From the NCBI GenBank assembly GCA_918797485.1, contig CAKKNE010000002.1, positions 1,240,001 to 1,304,000 on the forward strand: a stretch of 64,000 bases of DNA, given 5' to 3'. The stretch comes from Pelagomonas calceolata (taxonomy: Eukaryota). The notes beneath the pieces were generated by a model. That model was not told where the DNA came from. It ran no database searches and saw nothing but the letters and a program-made list of their open reading frames with translations. This document shows positions 4,950 to 62,778 of this stretch, one piece after another (the stretch's first letter is position 1; each line of letters opens with the position of its first letter). The translations under genes and the position numbers were made by a program.

Positions 4950-7101
4950 TTATTGTCCCAGGTACACCAGCAGATCCCGGGGGATCCGGAACGGCGGCTC
5001 CGCGCGGCCCTTCTCGCGGCGCACGGCCTCCTCGCGCATCGCGCGCGCCTCGGCGAGCCGCTCCGCGCCGGTCCGGCGGCCGTCGACGAGCGTCGGCGCG
5101 ATGCGCGGGCTCCTGCAGCTATTGTCGGCGGCGAGGCGCTCGGCCGCGTTCGCCGCCGCGTCGGCCGCGGCCAGGCTCTCCGCCCGGAGCATCGCTTGCT
5201 CCGCCGCCTCGGCGCGGTCGCCGGCCTTGTTGGCGCGGTCGCGGACGCGCCGCGCCTTCTCCAACACAGCCTCGCGCGGGTCCGGCGTCGGCGGCGGCAG
5301 CGGGTCGACGCGCGTGTAGCCCTTGGCGACCATGTCCTCGTGGATCGCCTCGGCGAGCGTCGTCGGTGATTTCGGAGCCGGCACGGGCGCCGACGCGTCG
5401 TCGCGCATGTCCGGAGGGACCAAGAGTTCCAGCACTGGGTCGCCGGTGAGCACGCGCACGAAATCGTCGTCCTTGTAAATCTCGGCCTGGTTCTGGTTCT
5501 GTAATAGCAGCGACGCGACCGCTTGCAAGGCTTTGTCCTTGGTCTCGAAGTCGGGCGCGTGGTCGACGGCGGCCAAGAGAGCGTGGCGGGCGCCGCGGTG
5601 GACCCAGACGGCCCGCCGCAGGGGCGGCGGCTGCGACAGGAGGTAGAGGGTCTCTATGACCGCGTACCGCGTGCCGGCGTCGCGGCCCGCGAGCCCGCCC
5701 GCCGCCGCGAGGTCCAGCGCGTCGCCGAGGGCCTTTTGGTCCAGCACAACCGTCGCCCCCTTCATGAGCCCGGCAAAGTCGCCCAGCGGCGCCGCGGCGT
5801 CGGCGTCGGCTTTTGCCCGGGCCTGCCGCGCGAGCGTCGCGGCGAGCGGCCCGAGCTTGGCCAGGAGCGTCGCGTCAGGTAATAGAGTTAGGAGGCGCTC
5901 CTTCGCGCGATTCACGAGGGGCCCCGGCGCGAGGCGCTCGAAGGCCGTCGCGTACAAGAGCCGCCTCAGGGGCCGGTGGGCCCAGAACTGCCTCTTGTTC
6001 GCCTCGTAGCCGGCCAGGCGGATCAGGCAATCTAAGGCGAGCGCGCGCGCGCGTGTCTCGACGCCACACTGCGACGCTACGAGTAATGCCTCGCGGACGA
6101 TTTTGCGCGGCCAGAGGTTCGCCTCGCGAGACAAAGAGCTCAGGACCATGAGCGACCGTCGTAGAGCGGCAGTCTCGACGGACGCGCCCTCGGTGTTTGT
6201 GGACGCGTCCTGCTTGACGAGGAGGCATGCGCCATTATCCAAGGCCGCCTTGCGGGACGCGGCCGTCTCGGGCGCGCGCGCCTTTTCCGTCGCTGCTTTG
6301 TGCTTTTCCGCGTCGGCGGACCAGGGTGCCTCCCGCAGCTCGCAGCCGTACTCGTAGTTCGCCCGCGCGTGTTCGACGTAGGGGATGGTCCCGCCGCCGA
6401 TGTCTTTATAGTAGTGGCGCCGGTCCCTCTCGTTGAGTCTCGCGCGTGTCCCAGCCTGCGTGGAGATCAAACAGTGAGTTGGGTCACGGGCACGACGTCG
6501 CGTCGATGGCGTCGGGCGTCCGAAATTTGAGTTCCACACAGGTCCCCACCAGATCTATTTCCAGGCGCTCGACCTGCTCCTCCAACAACTCATTCCGCTC
6601 CCGTAGCGAATTCAGGGTCGACAGCAGCGCGTCGCGGTCGTGCTTCACTCGCATGGTCAATGCTTCGATCTGGCTTTGCTTGGATCTCATATTGCCCAGC
6701 AGCCGCCTTTCCAGCTCTTCAGAGACGTATTTGAAGTGGTCGCGCTCGTCCGCCATCGCCGTGACGGTGCGGTGCAACCCGGTAGCCGTCGCTTCGATCT
6801 TTTTCAGAGCCGCTTGCGCGGCGACGGGCTGGCCCTTCTGGAGGCCGCAGCGCGCGGCGTGCGCCGCGAAGTCGAGCTTTTTGAGAGCGGCTTTCGCGCG
6901 CGTCGGGTCCGTCTTCAGTACTTTTTGGGAGGCAGCGTCGAGCACGGGATTGACGCCGCAGCCCTCGATCAATGCGAGCAGTTCCTCGCGCTTGGCGTCG
7001 CGTCGCTTCGCTTCGGTCCACGCGTGCGCCGAGCCGGGCCGCTTGGTTGGGATCGGTGCGACGCGTCTTGCCGCTGGGGCGGACCGCGGCCTGCGCTCCA
7101 T
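4950..7101 (-). CDS. Hypothetical coiled-coil plus helical (ARM-like) repeat protein; 2 exons, intron 6456-6549
   Basis: ORFs 6484..7101 and 4950..6539 join in frame (…EIDL|AGTR…) after removing a GT-AG introner intron. Confidence 0.65.
6456..6541. mobile_element. Introner element, short variant; intron 6456-6549 on the minus strand
   Basis: TIR ctgcgtggagatcaa...ttgagttccacacag. TSD on the minus strand is gtggggac (intronic) vs gctgggac (exonic), 6/8 match. Confidence 0.88.
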
Positions 7102-12759: not shown

Positions 12760-14490
12760 ATGATGCGTGCACTGCTGCTCGTCGTCGTCGTGCACGGCAA
12801 GCGGGCGCCGCCGCTGGGTGGCCGCCACGGGGCGCGCCTCAGGACGTACGCGCAGCTCGGGCGGCGCCGCGTGCCGCCGCCGGGGAGCACGCCGGACCAC
12901 GTGAAGCGCGTCTACGACGAACTCGACCGCTCCGTGGCCTACTTCCCGCAGACGACGAACCGCAGCGATGCTGCAAATATTGTGAAAGAGATCCTCGCGC
13001 ACCCCTACGGCCTCGCGCTCCTGAACGGGCGTTTATTTGCCCATGAAGGGGTCGACCTGAAGACGATCCGGCAGTTCCGGTTGTTGTTGGAGGCTTCCGA
13101 GAGGCGGCGCGTCAGGAACGTCGTCGTCGCGCACAACTCGGCCTCGGATGGTAGGTGCGCCACCGTATGTAGGGACTGCGGCCACGGGAGCCACGAAAGA
13201 GATAGAGGAAGACGCCACTTACCTTCCACGCTGATAGCCAAGAAGGGCGGTTTCAAGGAAAGGTGCGGCGTTTTGGTGCCGAATCCCTACTTTGGGACCT
13301 ACAGAGAGCGCACGAACTCGACAAATTATGTCGTGAGGACGCCGTGGGTCCGGCGGCAGAACCAGGCCTTTTGGAGGGGAAGACTGATCGAGCCCGGCAA
13401 GGCGTGCATGAAGGAGAAGTGCGTGCCCGACCCGAATTTATGTGAGGGCAACCTCGCGCGCTTCGAGGGTTTGAGCCTGACGTTGCGCCACCCGGAGTTG
13501 TTTGATGTCAAGGCGTTACATATCAGCCCGAGCTGTCGTGCGCTGCGTAGAAACCAATTGCAACGCGCTAAACGCCATCGACGCGATGTTGCTCACTAGT
13601 TTATTTGCGCACAGGGACCGACAAGGCGGCGCTGCGGAACCGCTCCTGTCTTCCTACGTCCTTCGCGACGAAGATCGCGAAGCGGCTGCACAAGGTCACC
13701 GAACCGAAGCACCGTTCTCACTTGTGTGGAAATCAAATTTCGGGCGTCCCACGCCATCGACGCGACGCCGTTCCCGTGGCCACAGTCGGCTCGATGGCGT
13801 GGAGGTTCACGATTCCTAACTCACTGGTTGATTTCCACACAGGTCCTCACAACTACTATGCGAGGTTCAAGATGAACCTCCACTTTCCCGGATCGACGAC
13901 CGGTTCGTACAGTCGGAACCTCAACCGCGCGGCGCGGTGTCCTCGCCTTCACGCCATCGCCGCGACTTCCAACCAACGGCTGTTCTCGCGCAGACCTCTG
14001 GTCGACCGACGCCGTCGTGCTCATCTGGAAGCACGCCGCCGTGGAGCACTACTACCGCGGCCTGGCGCACGGCGCGACTCATTTAGACGTCGACCTCGCC
14101 TCGGCCGCGGCGACGGCGCGGGAAGTTCTTAAGAACCAGCCCCTCGTGGCGAAGCTCAAGGCCGGCGCGCAGGCCGTTGTTCGCGACCTCATTTGCCCTG
14201 ATTGTCTGGAAAAGTTCCTGGCGGCCGCGCTCGCCAAGATCCGCGCGCGGCACGCGCAGAACTTAATTCTAGACGACGCGGGATCGCTGCGCGCCGCGCT
14301 CCGCGGCGCCAACTGCACCGGCCTCGTCGAGTACCGGCAAGCGCATCCAACCCAAGACGACACGCAGCTCGGTCTGCACAAGGCGATCGAGCGGCGGGTC
14401 AGAGTCGTGCCCCTCCCCGCTGCGAAGGTGGTCGGCGACGGCGAGGACCCCGCGTGCGCGGCGCTCGTCAATACTGTATTTAACAACTAA
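12760..14490 (+). CDS. CAP10 / glycosyltransferase family 90-like protein; 4 exons, introns ~13535-13614, 13714-13842 and 13927-13993
   Basis: N-terminal hydrophobic anchor, VLVPNPYF, PW..R..AFWRG, and after splicing HNYYARFKMNLHFPGS.TGSYSRNLNHLW...EHYYRGLAHG.TH. Three ORFs join in frame. Confidence 0.7.
13543..13614. mobile_element. Decayed introner-derived intron
   Basis: Ends ctgcgtagaaac...tttgcgcacag resemble the TIR, with internal acgccatcgacgcga. GT lies 8 nt upstream at 13535 (an alternative GT at 13538 is also in frame). TSD is no longer recognisable. Confidence 0.55.
13722..13842. mobile_element. Introner element; intron 13714-13842
   Basis: TIR ttgtgtggaaatcaa...ttgatttccacacag. 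TSD gttctcac / gtcctcac, 7/8 match. Confidence 0.92.
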
Positions 14491-15857: not shown

Positions 15858-17269
15858 CTAGAGGTGGACGCCGCGCGTCCCGTAGTCCTGCTCGAGGTTC
15901 TGGCACAGCTCGAGCCCGTCCTTCGACGTGTCGAGGTCGCCCTGGTCCAGACCCAGCGCGAGGAAGTCCTTCGTGTAGAACCCGTCCGCGGCGATGTCCT
16001 CGAGGACGTTGTGCTTCGCGCCCTCCCAGCCAAGAGTGGACATGACCTTGCGCACGCGCACGGCGAAGCCCTCGGCGTTCGGCCGGAAGGGGAACGAGGA
16101 TTTGGTGTCCGGCGGTAATGCCGTAACTAACGCCTCCTTGCCGAGCGCGTTCGCCGCGGCGATGCACACGTCGTCGTAGGAACACATCTTGTTCGTGCCG
16201 CAGTTGAAGATCTCGCCGCCCGCTTCACTTTCTTTGCCGACGACGGAACCGATCAACGAAGCCACATCTTCACAATGAGTGACAGAGACGGGCTGCTGCG
16301 CGTCGGCCGGGACCGGCATCGGCAGGTCCCGCGCGGCTCGGTTCAGGAACCAATCCAAATAATCGCGCTTGTTCGTGTAGGGGCCGTAGATGTACTGCGG
16401 CCGGAAGGCCGTCCACCTTCCGGGTAACTCCTTCTCGAGGGTCATCTCGACCTGTGTGGAAATCAAATTTTACGGCGCGTTCGTGCTGAAGCATCGCGCC
16501 GTCCTCCACGCCATCGATGCGACGCCTGCTCGATGGCGTAGCGATGCCGGTTCCTCGCCGCTCGACGGAGCCAGCACGGCCGCGTCATTGTGCACCCGAC
16601 GCACTGGTTGATTTCCACACCGTTCTCGACCTCGCGCTGGCCGGTCGGCGGGTCCTTGACCTTCTTCTCCTCCTTCAACATCCCCTTGGCGGCGTACATG
16701 CCCGCCGATGAGACGAAGCTGTAGAACGCATCAGACTTCTTCGCCGCGGAGATGATGGGCGCGGCGTCGCCCGGTTTCTTCGAGTTGTTGTCGAAGACGT
16801 GCGTGGCCTTGTCGCCGCAGGCGGCTTCTACGGCCGACGCGTCGGACGTGTCGACCCACTCCACATTCACGGACGACGGGAGCTCGCCGTACTTGCTGAA
16901 CGGCAAAGCTTCTTTTTTGGCGGCGCTGTCCTGCACGATGGTCACGGTCAGGTCCTTGTCAGCCAGGTTCTTGGCCAGATGAAAACCGATCTCGCCGTGG
17001 CCGCCGCCCTTGTTTTGTACCTGCGAGCGGGACACGCCGTCGAACCGACACATTGGGCACAGCGTCGGCCGAAGTTTGACGACATTGAGCCGACATCCGC
17101 GTACAGCGTCGACGGCAGCGAGGCAACAACTCGAAGACTTCCGACGCCGCAACCGCACGATGACCGCATGGCCGGCGGCGTTGAGGGCCGTGCTGGATCT
17201 AGCAGTGGGGGCCGGGGCGAAGCACTCCGCGCCTAATGCGAGAGCGAGGACGACGGCGGCGGCACGCAT
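15858..17269 (-). CDS. CSP41: Chloroplast stem-loop binding protein CSP41-like (atypical SDR/epimerase fold), plastid-targeted; introns 17021-17158 and 16452-16630
   Basis: Signal peptide plus AEC-FAP (ASAFAP-like), GGGHGEIGFHLA, FVSSAGMY, FRPQYIYGP, WFLNR, FPFRP. Exons join as QRE|VEMT. Confidence 0.85.
16452..16622. mobile_element. Introner element, long variant; intron 16452-16630 on the minus strand
   Basis: TIR ctgtgtggaaatcaa...ttgatttccacaccg. TSD atctcgac / ttctcgac, 7/8 match. Confidence 0.92.
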
Positions 17270-20769: not shown

Positions 20770-22774
20770 ATGGCGGTGCCGTTGCGGCGAAGCCGCTGTA
20801 GACGCAGCATCCTTGGCCGAGCCGTAGTCGCTGCGATTTTGCTCTCGGAAGCGGTGCAGTGTATTCAGTTCAAACGTAAGCGCGCGGGCGTGAGCCATCG
20901 TGCGGTGCGGCCAGCGGTGTCGACAGCTACGCCAGCGGCTCCATCAAAGGCCAAACCGTCGAATACGGCCGCGGTGACAGGAAAAAATAACATCCTACCG
21001 CTGTCGGCGCCGCAGAACAAAATCGACGCGGCCACGCTGACGGCCCTGGTCGCCGCGGACCCCGGAGACGAGCTGGACGAGCCTCTGCGCCTCGTTTCCG
21101 GCGCGATTCCGAAGGACCTGCGCGGCACGCTCTACGTGAACGGCCCGGCGCGGGTCATCGACGGCCGCGGCCGCGCGGCGCACCCGCTCGACGGCCACGG
21201 TTTTGTAAGGGCGTTTTCATTTGGCGCACGGACGGATGCGGCGAAGCTCGCGGCCGCCGCCTCCACCAACGCTAATGACGCGTCGACGTCCATTGGTGGC
21301 AGCACAGTGGCGGCAGACGGTCGCTCGGGCGTGACGGTCCGCGGGCGCTTCGTGCGGACGTGGGCGTACGAGATCGAGAACTTCTTCGACCGCAACCTGT
21401 TCCGGGGCTTCTTCTCGCTGCCCTTCGCGCCGTCGACGCCGCTGCGCCTCTTCAACGCGCTGTCGCTCTGGCGGAAGAACGTGGCCAACACGGCCGTCGT
21501 CGCCTGGGCGGGGCGGCTTCTCTGCCTCTGGGAGCAGGGCCCGCCGCACGCGCTGGATGTGGAGACGCTCGAGACGGCGGCCGGCTGGGACCACCTTAAT
21601 TATTTAGAGACGCCGGCGTGCGCCGTGTCGCGATTGCGGCCGCTGCTGGCGCACACCAAGGTCTGGGTCGAGAATGATGGAAGGGAGCGCCTCGTCGGCC
21701 TGTCGGTCGTGGGCTCACATTTTACATTTTACGAGTTCGACGAACGCGGCGATCGCGTCGCGACCGTCGCCACGGAGCTGCCGTTCGCGAACCCGCTCAC
21801 CCACGACTTCAGCCTCACGGAGCACTATTACATTGTCGCGGAGAACCCGGTGCGGTACGAACCGGACGTCGCCGGGGCGCTGGACGGGTCGCAGCCCGCG
21901 CTAGGGCCATCCTTTGTCGCTTCCGCCGACGACCGGCCTGGCCTGCTCGCGCTCGTGCCCCGCGACGGGTCCGAGCCGATCGTCCTCGACGCCGGCGACG
22001 CGTCGATCGTCTTCCACTACGCGAACGCGTGGGAGGAAGGATCGCGTATCAAAATCGCGGCGTGCGCGTTCGACCGTTATGAATTGGGCGCCGAGTACGG
22101 CTTCGACGCGGCGGGCGGCCGTTTCGATCCGAACTTGCTACTCCGTGACGATCTGTGTGGAAATCAAAATTTCACGTCGCGTCCTGCTGAATCGGCGGGT
22201 CGACCTCCACGCCATCGACGCTGCGCCTGCTCGATGGCGTGGCGATGCCGGTTCCTCACCACTCGACAGAGCCAGCACGGCAACCCGACACACTCTTGGT
22301 TTCCACACAGGCCACGACAACGCCTGGGGCCCGTTCCTCCGCGTGTCAACAATTAATCTCGCGGCGGCAACGGTGTCGCACACTACGGTGGAACACGTTC
22401 ATCGGGACTTTCCCCGAGTCCATCCGCGAAGGGAGGGCCGGCCGACGAAGTACGCTTATGTCGCGGCGTCGCCCCATCTCCAGGAAGGCGAGCCGTTCTT
22501 CCCCTTCCAGTGCATTCAGAAGGTGGCGCTGGACGGCTCCGACGAAGTCATCACGTGGAGGCCCGCGCGCCCGGGCTGCTTCGTCGGCGAGCCGGTCGTG
22601 GCGCCGCGTCCCGGCGAAGTCAACGAGGACCACGCGTGGCTGCTGATAGTCGTCCACGACGTCCACGCCGCGGCGACGGACCTCGTGGTCCTCGACGCAC
22701 GGACGCTCGCCGTCGCCGCAGAGCTGCGCGTCGACCGGCTCCTGCCGCTCGGCCTCCACGGCACGTGGGCCTGA
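20770..22774 (+). CDS. Carotenoid cleavage dioxygenase (RPE65/CCD family); intron 22145-22310
   Basis: GAIPKDLRGTLYVNGP, HPLDGHG, KNVANT, four Fe-ligand His (LAHTK, THDF, FHYAN, GLHG), DFPRV, GEPV. Exons join as LLR|HDNAW. Confidence 0.88.
22153..22310. mobile_element. Introner element, long variant; intron 22145-22310
   Basis: TIR ctgtgtggaaatcaa...ttggtttccacacag. TSD gtgacgat / gccacgac, 5/8 match. Interior closely resembles 16452-16622. Confidence 0.9.
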
Positions 22775-23304: not shown

Positions 23305-26300
23305 ATGCTACGGCGCGCCGCCTGGCTGACGAGCCGCCGCGCGGCCGCCGCGCTCCGCACGCACAAGCCAAGCACTACTCATGTGACCGCCGACGGCATC
23401 GACGGCGCGTCCGTCGGCATCTCGTTACCGGAGGAGACGATCGTGCCCGAGGCCGGCGCCTTCCGCCCGATGACCTACCTCAACGCGTCCACGGTCGTCG
23501 AGGTCAACCCGGCCACCGCCTTCGGCTCCTCTAGCCTTGCGGTCAAGCCAATTTTGGTGGAGCCGCCCAAAACCTTAATTCGCCCACCGTCCATCGGCAC
23601 GAACCTCGTCGGCGGCTCAAGACTCCTGGACTTTGTCAGCGCTTCGTCGACGGCGTCCATCGAGTCCATCCCTAGCCAGTCGCCCATCAAGGCATCGCTC
23701 GACGTCGTGCCCATCAAGACATCGCTCGACGTCGTGCCCATCAAGACGCCCCTCGACGTCGTGGCGACGCTCGAGCTCCCCAAGGCCGACGAAGCAGACC
23801 TCGTCGGCATCTCAAGCCTCCTGAACATCAGCAGCACTTCGCCGACGGCGTCCATCCCCAGCCAGTCACCCATCAAGACGTCGCTCGACGTCGTGACGAC
23901 GCTCGAGCACTCCTACGATGACCAGTCCTCGTCCTGGCGCCCGCCGTCGAAGGCGTTGGCAGTTCTGGTGGCTCTCGGTGTTGTTGGCACTTTGGGCGAG
24001 ATTCAGCCCGACGCCGACTGCGCACGGCTTAAGCAGGGCTTGCGTGGCCCTTCTACCGAGTGTGACTGCCTCAACTTCGCCCAATTTCCCGACGGCGTCG
24101 GCGTCGACGCCTATCCGGACTGGGTGCAGCCGTGTGGTGCTAGGGTTAACGGGAAAAAGGCTCCTGGTAGTGCTGGGCCAGGTGCAGTTGGAGAATCGCG
24201 CCACGGCGTGGCGAAAAACTGCCCCAACTTTCTAGCGCACGAGGAGCTGTTTCTAGGACAGCCCGTCTTTGGCGGCGTCCATAAGGGCACGTCAAGCAAG
24301 TCGTGCGGCGTGCTCGGCAAGCCTACCGATTGTGACTGCATCAACTTCGTGCAACTGCCCGAAGGCGTCGGCCTCGACGCCTATCCGGACTGGAAGCAAC
24401 CGTGTCGTGCTAGAGTGCAGGGGAAAAAGCCTCCTAAAGGCGCTCCCCCTGGGACGATTGGAGAATCACCGCACGGCGTGGCGACGACCTGCTCCAACTA
24501 TTTAGCGTACAAGGATCTGTTCCCACGGGAGAAAGTTTTTGCCGGCGTCTGTAAGAGCACCCACTCGGGCCCGTCGGGCAAGCAAGCCAAGACGCCGCTG
24601 CCACTATCCCAGGAGATCATGAACGGCGTGGACGCGGGCCTCCCTCGCATCAAGACGCTGTTCAACGTCCTCGAGCGCTACCGGCCCATCCTCTCGACGA
24701 TCATCCCGGCCGTCGACGAGAGCCCTAATGTCCGCTCCGCGCGCGAGGCCTGGATCAAGCTGCTGCAGGGCGCGAAGAGTTGCGAGGGCTCGACGCCGAT
24801 AGAGTACAAGATGTTCGACATCGAGAAAATGCAGAAGACGCCGTGGGGGCAGGCGTTGCGCGAGGCTGCGCCCAACTCAACTTTCACGACGCTTGCGTTC
24901 TTTATTTATTTTAACACAGGCGCGACGAGGGCAAGGAGGGCGAGGCCGTCGCGCGCGAGGCGGTCCAGCTCGGCATCGTCACGGCGACGTTGAAACGGGG
25001 CCTGGCCTTCGGCGACCTCAAGGTGGTGCTGGATGATGCGGAGACGAGAGGCCTCGGCGAAGACCGTGTCCGCAACGACCTGACGAGGACGCTGGGCCAC
25101 GGCGACAAGCTGTGCGTCTACGGCCTTTACCCGGAGCGTGATTTGTTGGAGTACTGCAAGTGCCTCGACGGCGTGGACTACATCAACGTCCACGGGGCCG
25201 TGTGTCACGCGATGGGCATGGACCCGCATGGCTATCACCGGAGGCCCGGCTTCGTGGCGCCCTGCCCGATCGCAAGCAGCGGGGAAATGATGGAGCAGCT
25301 GCGGAACGGCGTGTACGCTGAGGTCGTAAAGGACTGGAACGTCACGAGCTACCCGCACGTGGCGGCGCGCTCGCGCCTCGTGGACAAAAAAAAGGGCAAG
25401 GTCGACGACCCGTCGTTCATGGCGTTGCTGGCGGCGGATTTCGCCAATGCCGGTTTGGACGGGTTGCGGGCGGCCTGGACGGGGACCGACGCGTTCCTGG
25501 AGGGCAAGGTCGTGACGCTGCCGCCGCGGCCCACGGATCTCAAGAGCTGGTACGTGGACAACCCCTCGTACGACGTGCCTCGGGAGCAGCGCCCCGACTA
25601 CCAGGAACCGAAGAAGCCCTCCAAGAAGAAGGAGGTGAAGACGGCGGCCATCCCCGACGTCGCTTTCAACGAGTCGACCTTTGTCTTCGAGGGCTGCGAG
25701 CATTACATCCGCGACGTGGTCTCCGTGGACGGCGTGATCTGCGTGGACCACTATCAGAAGGCCCTCGACAAAGGGGACTTCATTACGTTGGTCCGGACGC
25801 CGTTGGAAGAGCTCATGTCCAACGGGACGACGTCGGCGCCGGCGCCTGGCGCCATGCAGGCGCCGCCGAACTTCGGGAAGGACATCCGCAGCTATTTCGC
25901 GCCCGCCGCCACCGCTTCGGCCGCAGCGCCGACGGCGGGCGAGGCGCTCCCTGCCGCTGGCACGGATTTTCCGAAGATCCCGTTCAACCCGCGGGACTTC
26001 GACCTCAAGCCCGGTGCAACGGTCCCGACCACGCAGCCCACGAAGAATATTAGATGGGCGTTGCGATTGACGGAGTTACAAATGGACGAGGATGGCGACG
26101 CCAAAAACATGTGGAGACCGAGACAGAGACAGTCCGCACTCCGGCAGGCCGCCGCGGCGACGGCGCGGCGCGTCGTCGCACCGGTCGTCGAACCGGCCTC
26201 GCCGCCCGGCTCGCCGCAGCACGAGTCGTCTTCGACGCCGACGCCGTTCCAGCCCGAGGTCACGGACCTCACCTACTCGCCGCCGCCGCCGCGGACGCCG

Positions 26301-36297: not shown

Positions 36298-36971
36298 ATG
36301 AGGCTCGCCGGCCTCCTGCTAGCGTTGCTGATCCACGGAGGCTCGCCGGTAGAACTCTCGCCGGTAGACAAGGATACATTCCCGCGTTAAAACTCATCGG
36401 CGGGATCCTCAACGCGAAGGATTTGGGCATTGACAAGAAGAAGACGTACAAGAAGAAGCACCACCATCATCACGAGTATCGACCTGCGTGGAAATCAACC
36501 AGTGAGTTAGTGTTTCGGAGGGAGACGACATCGCGTCGATGGCGTGCGGTGCCTAAAATTTGATTTCCACACAGGGATCCGGTCACAGCCGCGGCCCATA
36601 CGATCCAGAAATTGTTCAAAGGTAAGCAGTCGCCGGCCACGAGCCAGGTGTCCGCCGAGCTGTCGCCTTACGTCGCCTCCGAACGCTTCCGCAGCGAGGA
36701 GTCGCCGCCGCAGAACGTCGTCGTCGCCGCCGTGGCGTATCCCTTCAAGGCCGTGGCAGGGTTGTTTATGCCCGCGCCGCAGCGCCGCCAGTCCGACGGG
36801 GACCTCTCACCGATGACGGCGAGCCGACCTGTGAGCCGCGCCAACACCTCGACCACGACTATGCATTCGCCGCCGCCTGCGCCGCGGATGCTCGACGACC
36901 ACGAGCTCCCGCGGCCACCGATCGCTCGCAACGAACGCGGGCTCGGGAGCACGTGGTACGGCGAGTCCTGA
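36298..36971 (+). CDS. Small hypothetical protein; intron 36476-36574; 5' structure unresolved
   Basis: Splicing joins KKKHHHHHE|DPVTAAAHTIQKLFKGK in frame. The ATG at 36298 is in a different frame. Confidence 0.4.
36484..36574. mobile_element. Introner element, short variant; intron 36476-36574
   Basis: TIR ctgcgtggaaatcaa...ttgatttccacacag. GT lies exactly 8 nt upstream; TSD gtatcgac / ggatccgg is decayed (4/8). Confidence 0.88.
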
Positions 36972-46346: not shown

Positions 46347-49300
46347 ATGGAAGAGGAAATGGACAAAGGGCGTATGGCGGAGGAACTCGAGATGGGCGCC
46401 GCGCCCGCGAACTGGCCGAGCCCCCGCGACTTGGACGACCTCATGGCCGACCGCGAGGTCGCGAACCTCCAATCCTTGCTCAAGGCGAACGGCCAGACGT
46501 CGATGCAGCAGTGGCTCCAAGTAGATCCGTCCCAAGGCCTCTCCAGCGATATCGAGAAGCGCCGAACAATTTATGGAAGGAACGCCTTCGACGCGAAGCC
46601 GCCCACCTCCTTCTTCGCATTCTGGTGGGACGCGATGCATGATGGGGCGATCATCGTTTTATCTGTCATGGCCGTCGTTACTATTTTAGTATGGCTCTTC
46701 GTCGAAACTCCTAAATGTGTTCCCAATGGCTATTTGGAACCCGTCGCTCTCGTGTTTTCCATCTCAGTTATTACATTAACAACAGCTGGAATAGATTTCA
46801 GCAAGGAGCGGATGTTCGCCGCCTTATCGGATCAATTGGATGCGTCCAATAAAAAATTCGTGCTGCGGAATGGACAAACGTTGGAACTGCCGGACGCGGA
46901 GATCGTCGTCGGTGACATCGTTACGTTTAATGCTCATAATGCGGCGTCGGTGCCCGCGGACGGCGTCCTCGTAGCTGGTTCGGGCGTGAAGATGGACGAG
47001 GCCGCTCTCAACGGCGAGCCCGAGCCCGCCGAGAAGAGCGCCGAGAAGCCTTTTATATTATCTGGCACGGTCTGTACGTCTGGTTCTGGCAAATTGTTAG
47101 TGTTAGCGGTAGGAACACATAGTGTATCAGGTAAGATCAAGGCCGCGGTCTACGGCGAGGCCGAGGAGGAAGGCGGGTCCCCGCTCTTCGACAAGCTCGA
47201 CAAGATGTCCCTGAAGATCGGCAAGGCGGGCATGTACCCGCGTCTCGCTATCTCGGCACCGCGGCCATGTTTTCGGCCCAAACTCGGACACGACGTCTCT
47301 CTGATACAATCGACCGAGTTGAGCGAGCAGAACTTCTCTCAGACCACGAGAGACCACGAATTGAAGGGCGCTTGAACTTTGATTTCCACACAGGCATGTT
47401 CGTCGCGACGGTCGTTTTTCTTGTGATGACGATCGTGGGTGTTTTTATCAAGGGCGGCCCGGCGCGCGAGATCGTGCACTACATCGTCCAGGCCATTACT
47501 ATTCTTGCGGTTGCGGTTCCCGAGGGTCTGCCGTTGGCCGTTACGCTGTCCCTGGCGTTTTCGTCGTCGAAGATGAGTCTGGATAATAATCTCGTGAAGA
47601 CCTTGAAGGCCTGCGAGACCATGGGTTCTGCTACGACGATCTGTTCGGATAAGACGGGAACATTGACCGCGAACCGGATGACCGTGCGAGGTGCCGTGGT
47701 GTGCGGGGTCGTGAAGCCAGCCTTGGACCCTAGGATCGATACCGCCGAGTCGAGGAAGTCCGTCGGTCAACGACTAAGAGCAGATAAGAATATACCGAAT
47801 GAAGCGCTGGAAGAGTTGGGAAGACTCATCAGCGTGGACACGATGGACGAGAGCGCCGTGGTCTTTGAAAATGGCGACAATGCGCCGCCGGCGTTCAAGG
47901 GCAACCCCACCGAATGCGCGTTGCTCGAACTTTGCAGGACCCTATCGATCGACTGGCGTGGGATTAGGGACTCAGCAATTGGTCGGAGTGATGCCACTCG
48001 TTCGCAGGGCCACCCGTTCATGTTCTCGTCAGCGCGCAAGCTCATGAGCTGGGCCGTGCCTCGGGAGCGGGGCTATCGGGTCTACGTCAAGGGCGCGGCC
48101 GAGATTGTTTTGTCAAGATGCGCCTGGGAGGTGTCTTCCACGAACCGTGTTCAAAAACTGAAGGACGAGCGGAGGGAGTCTTTTTATGTGAACGACGTCG
48201 TCAAGTCCTTCGCCGCCAGCGCGATGCGGACCATCGCGCTGGCCTACAAAGATTTCGACCGTCTGCCCCAAGATTGGAGTCAAACGACTGATGAGGTAAA
48301 AAATGCGGACGGGACCGACGCCTTCGTGGCGGAGACGGAGCTCGTGTTGATGGGCATCGTCGGCATAGAAGACCCCTTGCGAGATGAGGTTCCTCCCGCA
48401 ATTAATCGGTGCTACGGCGCCGGGATTGATGTGCGCATGTGCACGGGCGACAACCTGGCGACGGCCGTCGCTATCGCGTCGAGATGCGGCATCCTGCGGA
48501 AGGAGCACTATAAACATGGTAGGATGTCGCCGCACGTCTCCGACTTGTTGAAGGATCGGGCCATGACGGGCAAGGAGTTTCGCAAGCGGGTCCATAATAG
48601 TGAAGGCGTCTTCGTGCAGGCGGCCTTCGACGAGATCTGGCCTCGACTCAGGGTCATGGCGCGGTGTGATCCCGACGATAAACATACATTAGCACATGGT
48701 CTCAATAAATCACTGCTCTTCCAGGACACGGAGACGTGCGCTGCCCTCAAAGAGGAGGGCATCACGATCTTTCCCGACCGCCAGGTCGTCGCCATGACCG
48801 GCGACGGGACCAACGACGCGCCGGCGCTGAAAAGAGCGGATGTTGGCTTCGCCATGGGCATCTCGGGCACGCAGATCGCCAAGGACGCGGCGGACATTAT
48901 TCTGTTAGATGACAACTTCGCGTCCATCGTCACGGCGGCCAAGTGGGGGCGCAACGTCTACGATTCGGTGTGCAAGTTCCTGCAGTTCCAGCTTACTGTC
49001 AATATTGCCGCTATCTCCGTCGCGGTCGTCGGGGCTTTTAGATACCAGGAATCGCCCATAGCGGCGGTCCAGATGCTCTGGATCAACCTGATCATGGACT
49101 CTTTGGCTTCTCTCGCATTAGCGACGGAGCCGCCCGACGACGCGTTGCTCGATCGACCGCCCGTCAATAGATCGGATTCCATCATCTCAGAACAGATGTG
49201 GTACAACATGGTCGGCCACGCGGCCTACCAAGTCGTCGTCATGATGCTCTTGTATTATGATTTAGGTGCTTCCCTATTAGATACGGAGCCGAACGGGACG

Positions 49301-51629: not shown

Positions 51630-52451
51630 TTAGCTTCGCGTCGATGGCGTCGAGGGCGGCGCGACGTCTGCTTCGGCCGGCCAGAACGAGAGGACGTGCC
51701 AGGCCATCTCGTTGGGCAGACGCGCGACGGCGGCGAGCAAGGCGTCGGGTTCGGCGCGTTCGCGGAGTGCAAGCGATCGGAGCCGTAGAAATGCCCTTCG
51801 CGGCAGCATGTATCTCCGGCGCCGCTCGTCGGCGATCAGCTTCTTGCACGCGACGAACTTTTCCTTCGTTGCATCGGTCGGTGGTCTTGTGCTACTATAT
51901 GCGGCGTGGTACTCCGGAAATGCACTTGGATCCTCGATTTGTCGCAGACACTCCTCGGCGCTCCGCCCGCCCCAGCAGCCGTCCAGTTTCGCGCCACGGC
52001 GCAGGAGCAGAGAGACATAGGCGAGTCCTGTTTCTGCCATGTCAATTCTGTCGTATCGAAGCCAGTCAATCGCGTTGGAGAGAGCCGTCTCGCCGGCCAT
52101 GTAGACACCTTCAATCGTAGCCGTAGTCCGTGTGTCAATGCTTGCACCAGCGTCCAGGAGCATGGTCGCCGCTTCCAGCCCGAATTCCTCATCGGATGAG
52201 CCGATTGCAGTGTATAGTGGATGGTCCCCGTCCATGTCCCCGGGTTTATTCACGTCGGCGCCGTGGGCGATTGCAAATTTCACGGTTTCGAGGTTATCAA
52301 ATACTAAGCTCAAATTCAAGATGGTGCATCCGTCCTCGTCGACGTCGTTGATGTCTCCGCCATTTTCAAGCCAGTCTCTTATCGTTTCCACCTGGTCGCT
52401 GGCGTCGGGCTCGCGCGTCGCGGCTTCGACTATATAGCCGGGCAAGACCAT
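51630..52451 (-). CDS. Ankyrin-repeat protein with a C-terminal LPNEMAWHVLSFW motif
   Basis: WLENGGDIN, AHGADVN, HPLYTA, LLDAGASID, GETAL, LLLRRGA. Paralogue of 8590..9534. Confidence 0.8.
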   Translation of the reverse strand: MVLPGYIVEAATREPDASDQVETIRDWLENGGDINDVDEDGCTILNLSLVFDNLETVKFAIAHGADVNKPGDMDGDHPLYTAIGSSDEEFGLEAATMLLDAGASIDTRTTATIEGVYMAGETALSNAIDWLRYDRIDMAETGLAYVSLLLRRGAKLDGCWGGRSAEECLRQIEDPSAFPEYHAAYSSTRPPTDATKEKFVACKKLIADERRRRYMLPRRAFLRLRSLALRERAEPDALLAAVARLPNEMAWHVLSFWPAEADVAPPSTPSTRS

Positions 52452-54525: not shown

Positions 54526-55908
54526 ATGGCTAAAGCCGCGACCATGTTCCTGCTGGCCGGCGCCGCGCGCGCGCTCCGCGGCCACCGCCTCCACCACTTA
54601 GCAAGACCTTCTAGAACGGTCATGTCCGCGGCGACGCTCGACCGCACGACCCCCACCAAACTCCAAGACGCCGAAAGTTTCCTCAAGGACATCGACGTCT
54701 TCATTTTTGATTGTGACGGCGTGATCTGGAAGGGCGATTCATTGATCGACAAGGTCCCGTCCGTCTTGGAATTACTGAGAAAGCTCGGAAAAAAAATCTT
54801 CTTCGTGACGAACAACTCGACCAAGTCCCGCAAGGGCTACAAGGGCAAGTTCGAGAAGCTTGGTCTTGACGTCGAGCCCGAGGAAATTTTTTCTTCTTCG
54901 TTCGCCGCGGCGGCCTACCTGGAGCAGACGGAGTTCAAGAAGACGGGCAAGAAGGTCTATATTATCGGCGAGGTCGGCATTGAAGAGGAGTTGGACCCTG
55001 CGTGGAAATCAAATTTCGGGCGTCCCGCGCTTCCGTAGCTGCGTCTGCGCGATGGCGTGGCGATTCCACGCCATCGACGCGACGTTATCCCCGTGGCCGC
55101 GTCGGCTCGATGGCGTGGAGGTCACGAAGGTCCACGCAATATTTTCTCGGGATGAACTAACTCACTGAGTGATTTCCACGCAGGCTGGACCTCATCGGCG
55201 TGCCGTACATCGGCGCCGGCAAGGACTCGGACAAGGAGCCGAACATGAAGCCCGGTGTGTGACCGGCGTCCCGTTGATGCGGCGATGGCGTGACGCGGCG
55301 ATGGTGTCGCGTCCGATGTTACGCGTCGACACCGTGACGCGTCGCTCTGATGGCGTCGCGGCGGGAGTAGTCCTACCCCGCCCGCGCGCCATCGACGCCG
55401 TCTCGGGACCGCCCCCACGCCATCGACGTCATATCACGCAGGCGGCAAGCTCGAGCCCGACGAGGACATCGGCGCCGTCGTCTGCGGCTTCGACCGCGAG
55501 ATCAACTACTTCAAGATCCAGACGGCGCAGCTCGCCATCAACGAGATGGGCGCCGAGTTCATCGCGACGAACTTGGACGCGGTCACGCATCTCACGGACG
55601 CCCAGGAGTGGGCGGGCAACGGCGCCATGGTCGGCGCGATCAAGGGCTGCACCGGGCAGGAACCTACTTTAGTAGGGAAGCCGTCGCCGCTCATGATCGA
55701 CTACATGGAGAAGAAGTTCGGCCTGGACCGGTCGCGCATCTGCATGGTCGGCGACCGCCTCGACACGGACATCCTCTTCGGCAACGACAACGGGCTCAAG
55801 TCGTGCCTCACGCTGTCGGGCGTGACGACGGAGGAGAAGCTGCTCTCGCCGGAGAACAAGGTGATCCCCGACTTCTACGTCGACTCGATCGCGGACTACC
55901 TCGGGTAG
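54526..55908 (+). CDS. PGLP: Phosphoglycolate phosphatase (HAD IIA), likely organelle-targeted; introns 54990-55183 and 55255-55441
   Basis: FIFDCDGVIWKG, FVTNNSTKSR, FIATNLDAVTHLTDAQEWAG, VGKPS, CMVGDRLDTDILFG, LSGVT. Three exons join in frame. Confidence 0.93.
54998..55183. mobile_element. Introner element; intron 54990-55183
   Basis: TIR ctgcgtggaaatca...tgatttccacgcag. TSD gttggacc / gctggacc, 7/8 match. Confidence 0.93.
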
Positions 55909-56404
55909 GTTTGTATGGGGGCTAATTTGAAAAGTCTATCTCGCGGTCCCGTCTGTCGCGTCGAGGGGCCGTCGGAGGCTTCCCTATTGCGACTGGGGAT
56001 TTTTCGAGGCGTTTCGATACTCACAGGAAACCGGCCGGCATTTGCTTGTCGGCGATGTCGGTGGCTCAATCTGGAAGCAGCACTCAGAGCCATCAAAACA
56101 CTCTCGAGCCTCGCTAGCCACACGACTTAAAGTTTGCGTCCGGCGCGCTCCTGTTTTACGCTCGCCTCGCCGGCTACACGCATACGGAATCTCGCGAACT
56201 CGCACGCCGCGTGCATTGCAAACACTGGCACTCAACTTTGCTTTTGCAAATAGCGCGCGGCGCAAAAGGCCACGGGCGCGCTCGACCTGTGCCGCGCGCC
56301 GCCGCGGACGTCGCGTCGGCCACGGCGGCCAACACGCGCGCCGAGAGGACGCCCGCGCCGACGCGCGAAACCGCGAACACGTCGCGCAGGCAAAAAAAAG
56401 CACA

Positions 56405-56955: not shown

Positions 56956-58517
56956 CTAGAATTCGGCCACGGCGAGCGTCTCGAGCCGCGGCTTCCCGTA
57001 ACGGTCCGCGCCGGGCCGCGGCATGGTCGGGGCCTCGACGGCGTAGAATTGAGCCTCATCCTCATCATCCGACTCACTCTCCACCACCGCAGCAGGGGAC
57101 CGCGACGCCCACGCGCGCGGCGACGCCGTGTCGCCCGTCCGCGGGGGCGGCGGCGGCATTAGAGGTGCCGACATTGTCCGATGCACGCGCCGCCGATCCA
57201 GCGCCGTCGTCGCCTCCAGCGAACTTTCTGGAGAAGTCGTCACGCGCGACACCTCCATGGCCGGCGACGGCTCCGGAAAGAATGATTCTGAGTCGATTTC
57301 CGGGAAGGGCGGCGCTAGCAGTTGCTCGACGGCGTGCCAATCTGTCGAAGCAAACGCGGGCGCCGCCCGCACGTCGTCCGCCAAAGGTCGGGAATGGGGC
57401 TCCTTCTCGAGGAGAGCTTCGAGCGTCACCGCCAAGGACTCGTCCTCGGGCAAGGAAGGCGTATCATTGAGAATAGACGCCATGAGCTGCCGCGGCGTCT
57501 CCGCGTGGAAGGGTGTACTACCAGTGGCCAATTCGCCGACGAGGATCCCAAGGGCCCACCAGTCGACGGCGACGCCGTAGGCGTGGCCCCGCAGGATTTC
57601 CGGCGCCATGTACTCGACGGAGCCACAAAAAGACCGGCACCCTTGGAGCGGGTCCTTGCCGAGGGCCGCGAGGCCGAAGTCGGCGACGACGCAGTGGCCC
57701 TGTGTTTTGTGACGGGTGAGGGGCGCAGCGACGGCGTCGCAGCGCGTCGCGTCGATGGCGTCGACGCGATACGCCGTCGGCGTGGCCCTCAGAGACTCTA
57801 CGCGCCTCGCGAGAGAGCCGCGGCAGTTCGAGAAGGAACGGACGCCGGAAAACGGACCTGGTCGTCAATCAACACGTTCGAAGGCTTGCAGTCCCGGTGG
57901 ACGACGCCGTGCGCGTGCAAGAACGTTAAAGCAACAACTAACTCAGCAAACGCAGCCACACAACTCTCGAGGGACACCTGTCTCCTTTTCAATAAAGTCT
58001 CCAAGGAACCGCGCGAGAAGTAGTCCGTGACCAGGTAGAAGGAATCTTGCGCCTGGAAGGCGTAGCGCAGGTCGATGACGAAGGGTCCTCCTTTCGATTG
58101 CAGAAACCCGAGGATGAACGGCTCGGCCTTCGAATTGGGCGGCTTCCGCCGGTCTTTTTTGCCGGGCTCCTTCTTCTGGCAGACCTTCATGGCAAACAAG
58201 CAGCCCTCGTCCGGGGGTTGGCGCTTCCTCGCTAATACGACGGTGGAAAACGCGCCTCTGCCAATCTCCTCAAGCACTTCAAAGCGGTCCTCGGCCTCGC
58301 GCGTGTCGCTCACGGACGAGGAGGCGGTGACATCAGATCGAGAGCGACCTAACGACAAGGCTGACAACGACCGCGTCAATCGCGACGACGTCCGCGACAG
58401 CGAGCGGGACCAGCTTTTCCGGAGGGGCTCGTCGCTCTTCGCCGTGTTCGGCTCGTCCTCGTGCTGTTTCCTGCTCTTGCGCCGGGGGCTCGACCGGCCG
58501 AAGAGGGAGAGGGGCAT
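56956..58517 (-). CDS. AGC-family Ser/Thr protein kinase; intron 57700-57857
   Basis: IGRGAFSTV, AMK, LRYAFQ, HRDCKPSNVL, after splicing DDQ|GHCVVADFG, SFCGSVEYMAPE, VDWWALG. Confidence 0.9.
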
Positions 58518-61530: not shown

Positions 61531-62778
61531 ATGTTGCAGCATGGTTTCTGGCATGGTACGGCGCCTCGTCGAGATCGAGGCCGGGTCGAACGCGACGGAG
61601 AGTCAGTTCTTCATCGACATGGAACGCCGCACGAGCCTGCAGATCTCGGTCGCCTTCACGCTGGCCGTCGCGGCGGTCGTCGCGTGCTGCGGCCTGCGGC
61701 GCTCGTAGCCCTCCTTTGCTTCGCACCGGCGGCGGCGCGGAAGCCAAAAGGCGTGCGCGCGAAGAAAAGCGGCGTCGACGCAAAAGCGCTGGCCGTCAAG
61801 GCCTGCTGCGAGGACGCGACGACCGCCGAGCTGATCGTCGCGATGCGCGGCGGCAGCGACGAGCGCACGGCCGCGGACCACGCGCTCGCCGCGCGCGACG
61901 GCGCCGACAAGACGATGGCCGTCGAGATCCAGGAAGTTTTGGACTTGAGGGGCTCGGACACGGCGTGCCTGCTCGCCCTGGGCGCCGAGTGGTGCGGGCC
62001 CTGCAAGGTGCTCAAGCCGTTGCTACGGAAGGCCGCCGAGGCGTCTCAAGGGACACTCATACTGAAGGAAATTGACGTCGACAAAGAAAGACCGATCGCG
62101 GAGGCGCTGGAAGCGACGCAGCTGCCCTGCGTCTACAGCGTGAGGGACGGCAAGTTGCGAGACGTCATCGTCGGCCTGCCGCGGTCGCACCAGGACCTCG
62201 CGGCCTTCGTCATGCGCGCCATGGATGGGGAGGGCGGTGCTTCCACAGTTCCGGGCAGCCGGACCGTCAATTTGGCGCGCGTCGCGGGCTCGGCCGCCCT
62301 GGGCGCGGGCGGCCGCGAGGCCCTGGCGGCCAAGTGCCGCGGCGCGCTCGACGCGTGTAGGGAGCTTGCGGCGTCCGACAAGGATACGGTGATGGAGGCG
62401 CTCAAGACGACGAAAGCGTACCTAGAGCGGGCCTACGGCGGCAAGCCGGTCTATCGCGACAACGCCGTGTTTGTGGAGAACTGTGTGGAAATCAAACAGT
62501 GAGTTAGGTTATCCTGAGATTTGTTGCGGGACGACGTCGCGTCGATGGCGTGGGGCGCCCGAAATTTGATTTCCACACAGGTGGAGAAGGTGGCCCCCTG
62601 CGCGCCGGCTTTGGACTTGTTTGCGGCGGCTGGGTACGTGGAGATTCCCGGCGACCCTGAGGGTTCAGATGACGAGAAAAGAGACGCCTTACACCCGACG
62701 CATCGCAATCTAGCCGTCTTCGAGCTCTGCTGCGCCGAGATCGACAAGGCAAGAGATGAGCTGCGCGTGATGACGTGA
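61531..62778 (+). CDS. Thioredoxin plus PUB-like domain protein (sPUB-like); intron 62473-62580; start uncertain
   Basis: Hydrophobic LRPAALVALLCFAPAAA, WCGPCK, IDVD, and after splicing a PUB-like ALKTTKAYLE..NAVF|VEKV..ALDLFAAAGY. Confidence 0.7.
62481..62580. mobile_element. Introner element, short variant, best preserved; intron 62473-62580
   Basis: Perfect 16-nt TIR ctgtgtggaaatcaaa...tttgatttccacacag and perfect TSD gtggagaa / gtggagaa. Confidence 0.95.

What the first reader, a model, noticed from the sequence alone, without database searches (positions are those of the whole stretch)
54990..55191. Donor sites appear to be upgraded from GC (or GG) to GT after insertion
Seen: intronic vs exonic TSD copies are gttggacc/gctggacc (54990), gtggggac/gctgggac (6549, minus), gtgacgat/gccacgac (22145) and gtatcgac/ggatccgg (36476). 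The intronic copy has GT where the exonic copy has GC or GG. Introns at 47230 and 24858 keep GC in both copies. Inference: many insertions begin as non-canonical GC-AG introns and later fix C>T at +2, which implies a permissive spliceosome and selection for donor optimisation. The exonic copy acts as a record of the ancestral donor.
Basis: inference. Interest (0 to 1): 0.7.

Follow-up and report, generated by a model that had tools for sequence, protein, structure and literature searches.

The report
Splice donors in transposon-born algal introns
In a marine alga whose introns are copies of a small jumping element, the two copies of each duplicated target often read GT inside the intron and GC in the exon; some of these likely are real GC-to-GT changes in the intron, the flagged site likely changed in the exon instead, and a faster-than-chance 'upgrade' is not shown.

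Summary
The sites are introner elements (15-nt inverted ends, 8-nt target duplication; the upstream copy gives the donor), likely of a Pelagomonas-type alga. Intron 54990-55183 is spliced GT..AG (836 reads). The asymmetry is real: of 86 duplicated pairs from the window and marine metagenomes, 10 are GT(intron)/GC(exon), 1 GT/GA, 1 the reverse, 45 GT/GT, 29 GC/GC. Polarity is mixed. Homologous proteins put the change in the intron at 6549 and two metagenome loci, one from GA. At 54990 the difference is synonymous (TTG/CTG) and most related transcripts seen have T, pointing to the exon; 7 of 10 GT/GC pairs keep the amino acid. A model with a neutral intronic rate is not rejected (p 0.05-0.76), and +3..+6 show no drift towards the U1 consensus (10 vs 11). 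The clearer signal is a filter on which targets are kept: GT targets are 2-4.6 times over-represented. 36476 is not a demonstrable duplication; three GT/GT sites were missed. GC donors in these elements and donor conversion in dinoflagellate introners are already in print.

The parts
54990..55183 (+). Intron 1 of a HAD-family (phosphoglycolate-phosphatase-like) gene: upstream target copy 54990-54997 (starts GT) plus introner element 54998-55183 (inverted ends, ends in AG)
   Evidence: RNA joint 54989>55184, GT..AG, 836 reads of run X21; inverted repeat
55184..55191 (+). Exonic copy of the 8-nt target duplication, starts GC; position +2 is the first base of a Leu codon (CTG here, TTG in the intronic copy)
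   Evidence: related transcripts
54526..55909 (+). Host gene, three exons, HAD hydrolase (Pfam Hydrolase_6, Hydrolase_like); the name phosphoglycolate phosphatase is recalled
55255..55441 (+). Intron 2 of the same gene, GT..AG, holds the element's internal motifs but no inverted ends and no readable duplication; exon resumes with GC
   Evidence: RNA joint, 943 reads; motifs
6448..6549 (-). Element 6456-6541; intronic copy 6542-6549 starts GT (would read Val), exonic copy 6448-6455 starts GC (Ala); change placed in the intron
   Evidence: homolog P0025 has Ala-Gly across the junction; splicing not tested by reads
22145..22318 (+). Element 22153-22310 in an RPE65/carotenoid-oxygenase-family gene; GT/GC pair, +2 synonymous (CGT/CGC), 3 mismatches; not polarised
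36476..36582 (+). Element 36484-36574 with intact ends; flanks GT/GG with 4 of 8 mismatches, duplication not demonstrable
47230..47401 (+). Predicted intron 47230-47393 in a P-type ATPase gene, GC in both copies, left inverted end lost
   Evidence: its joint is not among the rows shown
24858..24927 (+). Predicted intron 24858-24919, decayed element, GC in both copies
13714..13850 (+).
16444..16630 (-). Element 16452-16622, GT in both copies (missed); same insertion in metagenome locus L022 with a perfect duplication, so the window's +8 change is intronic
62473..62588 (+). Element 62481-62580, perfect duplication, GT in both copies (missed)
13535..13622 (+). Decayed element 13543-13614, GT at the expected donor place, no readable duplication (6 of 8 mismatches)

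Best explanation
These are introner elements whose upstream target copy supplies a GT or GC donor, and the GT(intron)/GC(exon) excess likely comes from a one-way filter acting on ordinary mutation in both copies rather than from a demonstrated drive to upgrade donors. Shown: the element brings the AG, the duplicated target brings the donor, and 54990 is spliced. Inferred steps: (1) insertions are kept mainly at G-T targets, or at G-C targets with a better match to U1 further on; (2) afterwards the intronic +2 can only move between C and T, with C>T tolerated or mildly favoured and T>C rare; (3) the exonic +2 is freed from splicing and, where the change is silent, drifts from T to the C that this GC3-rich genome prefers. 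Steps 2 and 3 both give GT/GC. Step 2 fits 6549, L093 and L122; step 3 fits the flagged site 54990.
For:: 10 GT/GC, 1 GT/GA, 1 GC/GT, 45 GT/GT, 29 GC/GC of 86. Given T in the intron, the exon has C at +2 as often as at +3..+8, at silent sites (6/14 vs 4/11) and at non-silent sites (4/41 vs 7/71), p 1.0 both; silent sites are enriched (p 0.012). All 3 phase-2 cases are Leu/Leu with intronic TTG; related transcripts with T at +2 read directly in loose ends and between-letters (X16 3+3 contigs, X17 1, X18 1), by a joint (X18 1) and by inference (X16 4+2+1). Intronic polarity: P0025 Ala at 6549; 9 Ala, 5 Gly, 0 Val among the 14 of 16 homologs covering L093; Glu in 3 of 3 homologs of L122. Neutral intronic rate not rejected over 18 parameter settings (p 0.051-0.76). 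GT targets enriched 4.6, 2.0 and 4.1 times by phase among concordant pairs (p 0.0001, 0.24, 0.0006); GC/GC donors match U1 better than GT/GT (1.5 vs 0.84 of 4, p 0.005). No U1-directed bias at +3..+6 (10 vs 11).
Against: All 3 polarised non-silent cases are intronic. Given C in the exon at silent sites, the intron has T at +2 in 6/20 against 4/86 elsewhere (p 0.003). Converted pairs have a weaker U1 match than kept GC donors (0.8 vs 1.5, p 0.045), exonic GCT is over-represented among them (6/10 vs 4/29, p 0.009), and 8 of 10 lie in one orientation of the element (p 0.03), which exon drift does not predict; the last three are after-the-fact comparisons. The freely fitted intronic rate was above neutral in all 18 settings. 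In one search some relatives have C (X18, X20, and X17 identical to the window), organisms and intron status are unknown, and 135 loose ends were not shown. Target preference of the transposase and selection at establishment cannot be told apart.
Confidence: 0.58

Rival explanations
1. Selected upgrade: weak GC donors, GCT above all, and rare GA/GG targets are tolerated at first and then fix GT under positive selection; most GT/GC pairs are intronic changes.
For: 3 of 3 polarised non-silent cases; weak-donor, GCT and orientation enrichments; fitted +2 rate about 2 to 11 times the assumed neutral rate; L122 target was GA.
Against: No setting rejects neutrality; non-silent rate 3/18 vs 7/71, p 0.42; flagged site points to the exon; no optimisation at +3..+6; GC donors persist across populations 10-14% apart; no significant rise of GT with divergence (p 0.17).
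Confidence: 0.3
2. Exon drift alone: every donor was GT from the start and only the exonic copy changed.
For: Fits the pair counts as well as any other model; 7 of 10 silent.
Against: Homologs show Ala, Ala/Gly and Glu at three sites, so the exon there is ancestral.
Confidence: 0.05
3. Ectopic conversion or recombination between element copies overwrites the intronic 8-mer with another copy's (mostly GT) donor.
For: Among 29 highly mismatched pairs, intronic 8-mers resemble each other more than exonic ones (16 vs 1 near-identical pairs, p 0.002); perfect inverted ends beside 4-7 mismatches (36476).
Against: Not seen in pairs with 1-4 mismatches (p 0.17); L005 and L007 share one flank only, so assembly joins at the repeat can explain part of that class.
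Confidence: 0.07

Closest known systems
Introner elements of Aureococcus anophagefferens and Pelagomonas calceolata (Huff, Zilberman, Roy 2016, not held, known here from citing passages and recall; Guerin et al., 10.1101/2021.10.25.465678 passages and PMC9481584 supplement passages)
   Same: Short DNA-transposon-like introns with inverted ends, one splice site carried and the other recruited from the target duplication, either orientation; 956 putative elements with GT and GC donors and AG acceptors in P. calceolata.
   Different: The passages read do not compare the two target copies or ask which one changed.
Donor conversion in dinoflagellate introner-like elements (Roy et al., 10.1101/2020.10.14.339549, first quarter of the text read)
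   Same: New element-derived introns start with a suboptimal donor and convert later; classes with an 8-nt target and both orientations.
   Different: [quoted passage not shown]
GC-AG introns in pelagophytes (10.1101/2024.10.30.620910, passages) and GT/GC conversions in mammals (PMC2490688, abstract)
   Same: About 14% GC-AG introns in P. calceolata; GT and GC donors interconvert in evolution.
   Different: The pelagophyte paper ascribes GC-AG to genome GC content, not to the elements' targets; in mammals conversion runs mostly GT>GC (298 vs 40).

Membership tests
Aureococcus/Pelagomonas-type introner element | Multi-copy intron family with sequence similarity | tested here: met
Aureococcus/Pelagomonas-type introner element | Terminal inverted repeats | tested here: met
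   15-nt inverted ends in 129 paired elements
Aureococcus/Pelagomonas-type introner element | Target duplication of fixed length (8 nt) that differs between sites | tested here: met
   86 of 131 elements pass at most 2 mismatches outside +2; 38 have none outside +2
Aureococcus/Pelagomonas-type introner element | Acceptor carried by the element, GY donor recruited from the target copy, precise splicing | tested here: met
   RNA joint at 54990; a codon model blind to the donor picked a GY strand in most rows; homolog continuity at 6549, L093, L122. Splicing of a GC donor was not seen directly in my calls.
Aureococcus/Pelagomonas-type introner element | Works in either orientation | tested here: met
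   37 and 49 of 86
Aureococcus/Pelagomonas-type introner element | Empty orthologous site | tested here: inconclusive
   P0017 reads through the L122 site on a 468-kb contig, which fits an empty site; its DNA was not seen. DNA runs X3 and X5 showed no joined form at 54990.
Aureococcus/Pelagomonas-type introner element | Insertion into nucleosome linkers; autonomous transposase partner | not tested
   No chromatin data and no whole genome held
Selected donor conversion after intron gain (as in Symbiodinium) | Polarised conversions of the intronic donor exist | tested here: met
   6549, L093, L122
Selected donor conversion after intron gain (as in Symbiodinium) | Rate above neutral, one direction | tested here: inconclusive
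   p 0.05-0.76, p 0.42; one reverse pair in two populations
Selected donor conversion after intron gain (as in Symbiodinium) | Favoured donor splices better; its share rises with intron age | tested here: inconclusive
   Age trend p 0.17; splicing efficiency not measured

The most novel reading that the evidence does not exclude
The element can found introns at weak GC(T) targets and even at targets without GY (GA at L122, perhaps GG at 36476); these are spliced well enough to last and are then rescued by positively selected change to GT, more so in one orientation of the element. The target duplication would then be a built-in before/after record of splice-site adaptation for about a thousand introns in one genome.
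Probability: 0.3. Interest if true: 0.6.

Novelty: new member of a known kind. Interest (0 to 1): 0.35.

Why it matters
How newly gained introns acquire good splice signals is an open question, and the paired target copies make it countable within one genome. The result here is mainly a caution and a design: the exonic copy can serve as the ancestor only at amino-acid-changing positions, and positions +7/+8 of the same copy give the neutral yardstick. With about 956 elements in the published P. calceolata genome the test has ten times the numbers used here.

Tried and rejected
No whole genome is held for the window and the metagenome records were not searchable, so no genome-wide count. Viral contigs gave 2 hits without a second inverted end; genome contigs gave 6, of which 5 have no second end and one (L125) repeats the L113 site; its genome added no complete element. 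DNA runs X3 and X5 match the window and gave no empty site; the 20-kb lay hid 270 joints, so 36476 and 47230 were not checked by reads. A word-index search for the 6549 protein found nothing; HMMER did. Two PDB searches could not polarise L113; that Val is the conserved residue there in biotinyl/lipoyl domains is recalled. CpG deamination as the driver: not favoured, only 2 of 10 converted exonic copies read GCG against 10 of 29 kept ones. Pair counts alone cannot polarise: an all-intron and an all-exon fit differ by 0.5 log units. Supplementary Data 3 of PMC9481584 (element table) lay beyond the stored part of the file and bioRxiv supplements are closed; they may hold donor counts that bear on this. 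Earlier notes of the scan: none on this claim.

Full report
What is there. The window is GC-rich eukaryotic DNA with ten copies of one short element whose ends are 15-nt inverted repeats beginning CTG and ending CAG. Each copy lies between two 8-nt direct repeats that begin with G; the upstream one begins GT or GC. At the flagged site, reads of RNA run X21 skip 54990-55183 with GT..AG ends (836 reads) and 55255-55441 (943 reads); the joined frame encodes a HAD hydrolase. So the element gives the acceptor and the upstream target copy gives the donor. This is the published introner design of pelagophytes. That the organism is Pelagomonas or near it is my inference from these features; no call named it.

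Check of the observation. The six pairs are as written. 36476 matches at only 3 of 7 places beyond the first G (chance 0.29) and cannot be read as a GG ancestor. Three GT/GT elements (13714, 16630, 62473) and one unreadable one (13535) were missed. The window has 3 GT/GT, 2 GC/GC, 3 GT/GC and 2 unreadable.

Larger count. Pairing ends gave 129 elements, 8 of them in the window; I added two decayed window copies by hand. Strand and phase came from a self-trained codon model that does not look at the donor. Of 131 rows I kept 86 and dropped 31 (more than 2 mismatches outside +2), 12 (no GY on a supported strand), 1 (no AG) and 1 duplicate. At +2: 45 GT/GT, 29 GC/GC, 10 GT/GC, 1 GC/GT, 1 GT/GA. 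Ten to one is p 0.012 against even odds, but p 0.11 against the 11 to 7 ratio at +3..+8, and 7 to 1 (p 0.07) without the window. The 17 pairs with 3-4 mismatches add 2 GT/GC, 2 GC/GT and 1 GT/GG. The loci mix populations up to about 14% apart, are biased to copies with an intact end, and are not checked by reads; phase calls of weakly scored loci such as L060 and L084 are uncertain.

Why the count does not give the direction. GT in the intron with GC in the exon arises if the intron changes C>T or if the exon changes T>C. The genome prefers C-ending codons and uses TTG for 16% of Leu against 66% CTC+CTG. Seven of the ten pairs keep the amino acid, and all three phase-2 cases are Leu/Leu with TTG in the intron. 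Given T in the intron, the exon shows C at +2 no more often than at +3..+8 (6/14 vs 4/11 silent, 4/41 vs 7/71 non-silent). Given C in the exon, the intron shows T more often at silent +2 (6/20 vs 4/86, p 0.003) but not significantly at non-silent +2 (3/18 vs 7/71, p 0.42). An all-intron and an all-exon model fit equally. With the neutral intronic rate and the exon constraint fixed at 18 plausible pairs of values, the free +2 rate was always the higher, but neutrality was never rejected (p 0.051-0.76).

Polarised cases. 6549: the best homolog spanning the junction, P0025 (43% identical over 176 residues), reads Leu-Ala-Gly, the exonic version; one outgroup only. L093, an aldo-keto reductase: 14 of 16 homologs cover the place, 9 Ala, 5 Gly, no Val. 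L122, a WWE protein: 3 of 3 homologs have Glu, and P0017 reads through the site on a 468-kb contig, which fits an empty GA target; these are 91-96% identical and two may share the intron. 54990 goes the other way. In four ocean RNA assemblies T at +2 is read directly in X16 (3 contigs GAA TTG, 3 GAA TTA), X17 (1, TTG) and X18 (1, TTA), follows from a joint in X18 (1), and is inferred for 7 more X16 contigs that lie along the intronic copy while all four T>C rows of that run are elsewhere. C is seen in X18 and X20 (CTT, in an AT-rich context), in one X18 contig 88% alike, and in one X17 contig spliced like the window. The organisms are unnamed, RNA cannot show whether they have the intron, and 135 loose ends were hidden, so this favours exon drift without proving it. 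L113 and L125 share a GC(intron)/GT(exon) pair in two populations. Shared insertions polarise six more changes outside +2, five intronic and one exonic, and show GC donors kept in both lineages at L012/L062 and L067/L115.

Signs for and against selection. Against a general optimisation: at +3..+6 the intronic copy is nearer the U1 consensus (recalled as R-A-G-T) in 10 cases and the exonic in 11; the share of GT does not rise significantly with divergence (p 0.17). For a filter on which insertions are kept: GT targets are 4.6, 2.0 and 4.1 times over-represented by phase relative to coding sequence, and GC/GC donors match U1 better than GT/GT donors (p 0.005); transposase preference could add to the first. 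For some selected conversion: converted pairs have weak U1 matches (p 0.045), exonic GCT is enriched (p 0.009) and 8 of 10 are in one orientation (p 0.03). These were noticed after the fact, and GCT in phase 2 is simply a Leu codon, so they are leads.

Mechanism. Insertion duplicates 8 nt; copies are kept where the target starts GT, or GC with a good context. The intronic +2 is then limited to C or T, the exonic +2 only by the protein. Intronic C>T and silent exonic T>C both accumulate, and their reverses are rare.

What is known. GT and GC donors in 956 P. calceolata elements (passages of 10.1101/2021.10.25.465678 and the PMC9481584 supplement); about 14% GC-AG introns (passages, 10.1101/2024.10.30.620910); donor conversion from GA towards GC in dinoflagellate elements (first quarter of 10.1101/2020.10.14.339549); 53% GC donors in Micromonas IE-A1 and a permissive spliceosome argued there (passages, PMC3879977); passages of 10.1101/2022.06.06.494994, PMC11282704, PMC12130899 and PMC10228655; abstract of PMC2490688. 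The 2016 Nature paper was not held and could contain such a comparison. Six searches turned up no paper, in the listings and passages I saw, that uses the two target copies to polarise donor change; most subscription papers are outside the library.

Verdict. A known element, a real but modest asymmetry, a few true conversions including one likely GA>GT, a flagged site that likely changed in the exon, and no proof of selection. Interest 0.35.

Noticed in passing
L122:293-399: Target was likely GA (Glu in 3 of 3 homologs, one reading through on a long contig) while the intronic copy now starts GT with two changes: a possible intron founded at a non-GY site.
   Followed up: partly
elements in the less common reading, e.g. 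window 62481-62580 and 36484-36574: In one orientation the element carries a perfect donor-like GTGAGT 18 nt inside its end (26 nt after the used donor, out of frame); GC donors are more often kept in this orientation.
   Followed up: partly
window 55255-55441: Second intron of the same gene has the element's internal motifs, no inverted ends, GT in the intron and GC at the exon start; related transcripts have C there. Possibly an old copy.
   Followed up: partly
L125 (contig of a genome bin titled uncultured proteobacterium), about 500-720: Holds a short piece of algal gene with this element joined to bacterial-looking sequence: likely a chimeric contig or contamination of the bin.
   Followed up: partly
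L005, L007, L017, L028, L079, L082: Intact elements with unrelated flanks; L005 and L007 share only one flank; three loci have the same intronic 8-mer. Assembly joins at the repeat or exchange between copies.
   Followed up: partly
shared insertions L012/L062, L025/L102, L067/L115, L113/L125, window 16452/L022: The same insertions are present in populations 10-14% apart, and at some of them the element lengths differ, so the burst predates their split and inverted ends stay near-perfect while interiors change.
   Followed up: partly
window 51637-51665 and 57748-57775: The element's internal palindromic motif also occurs outside recognisable elements, apparently between genes.
   Followed up: no
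window 38001-40000: A stretch of 82% GC with many imperfect inverted repeats and little RNA cover.
   Followed up: no
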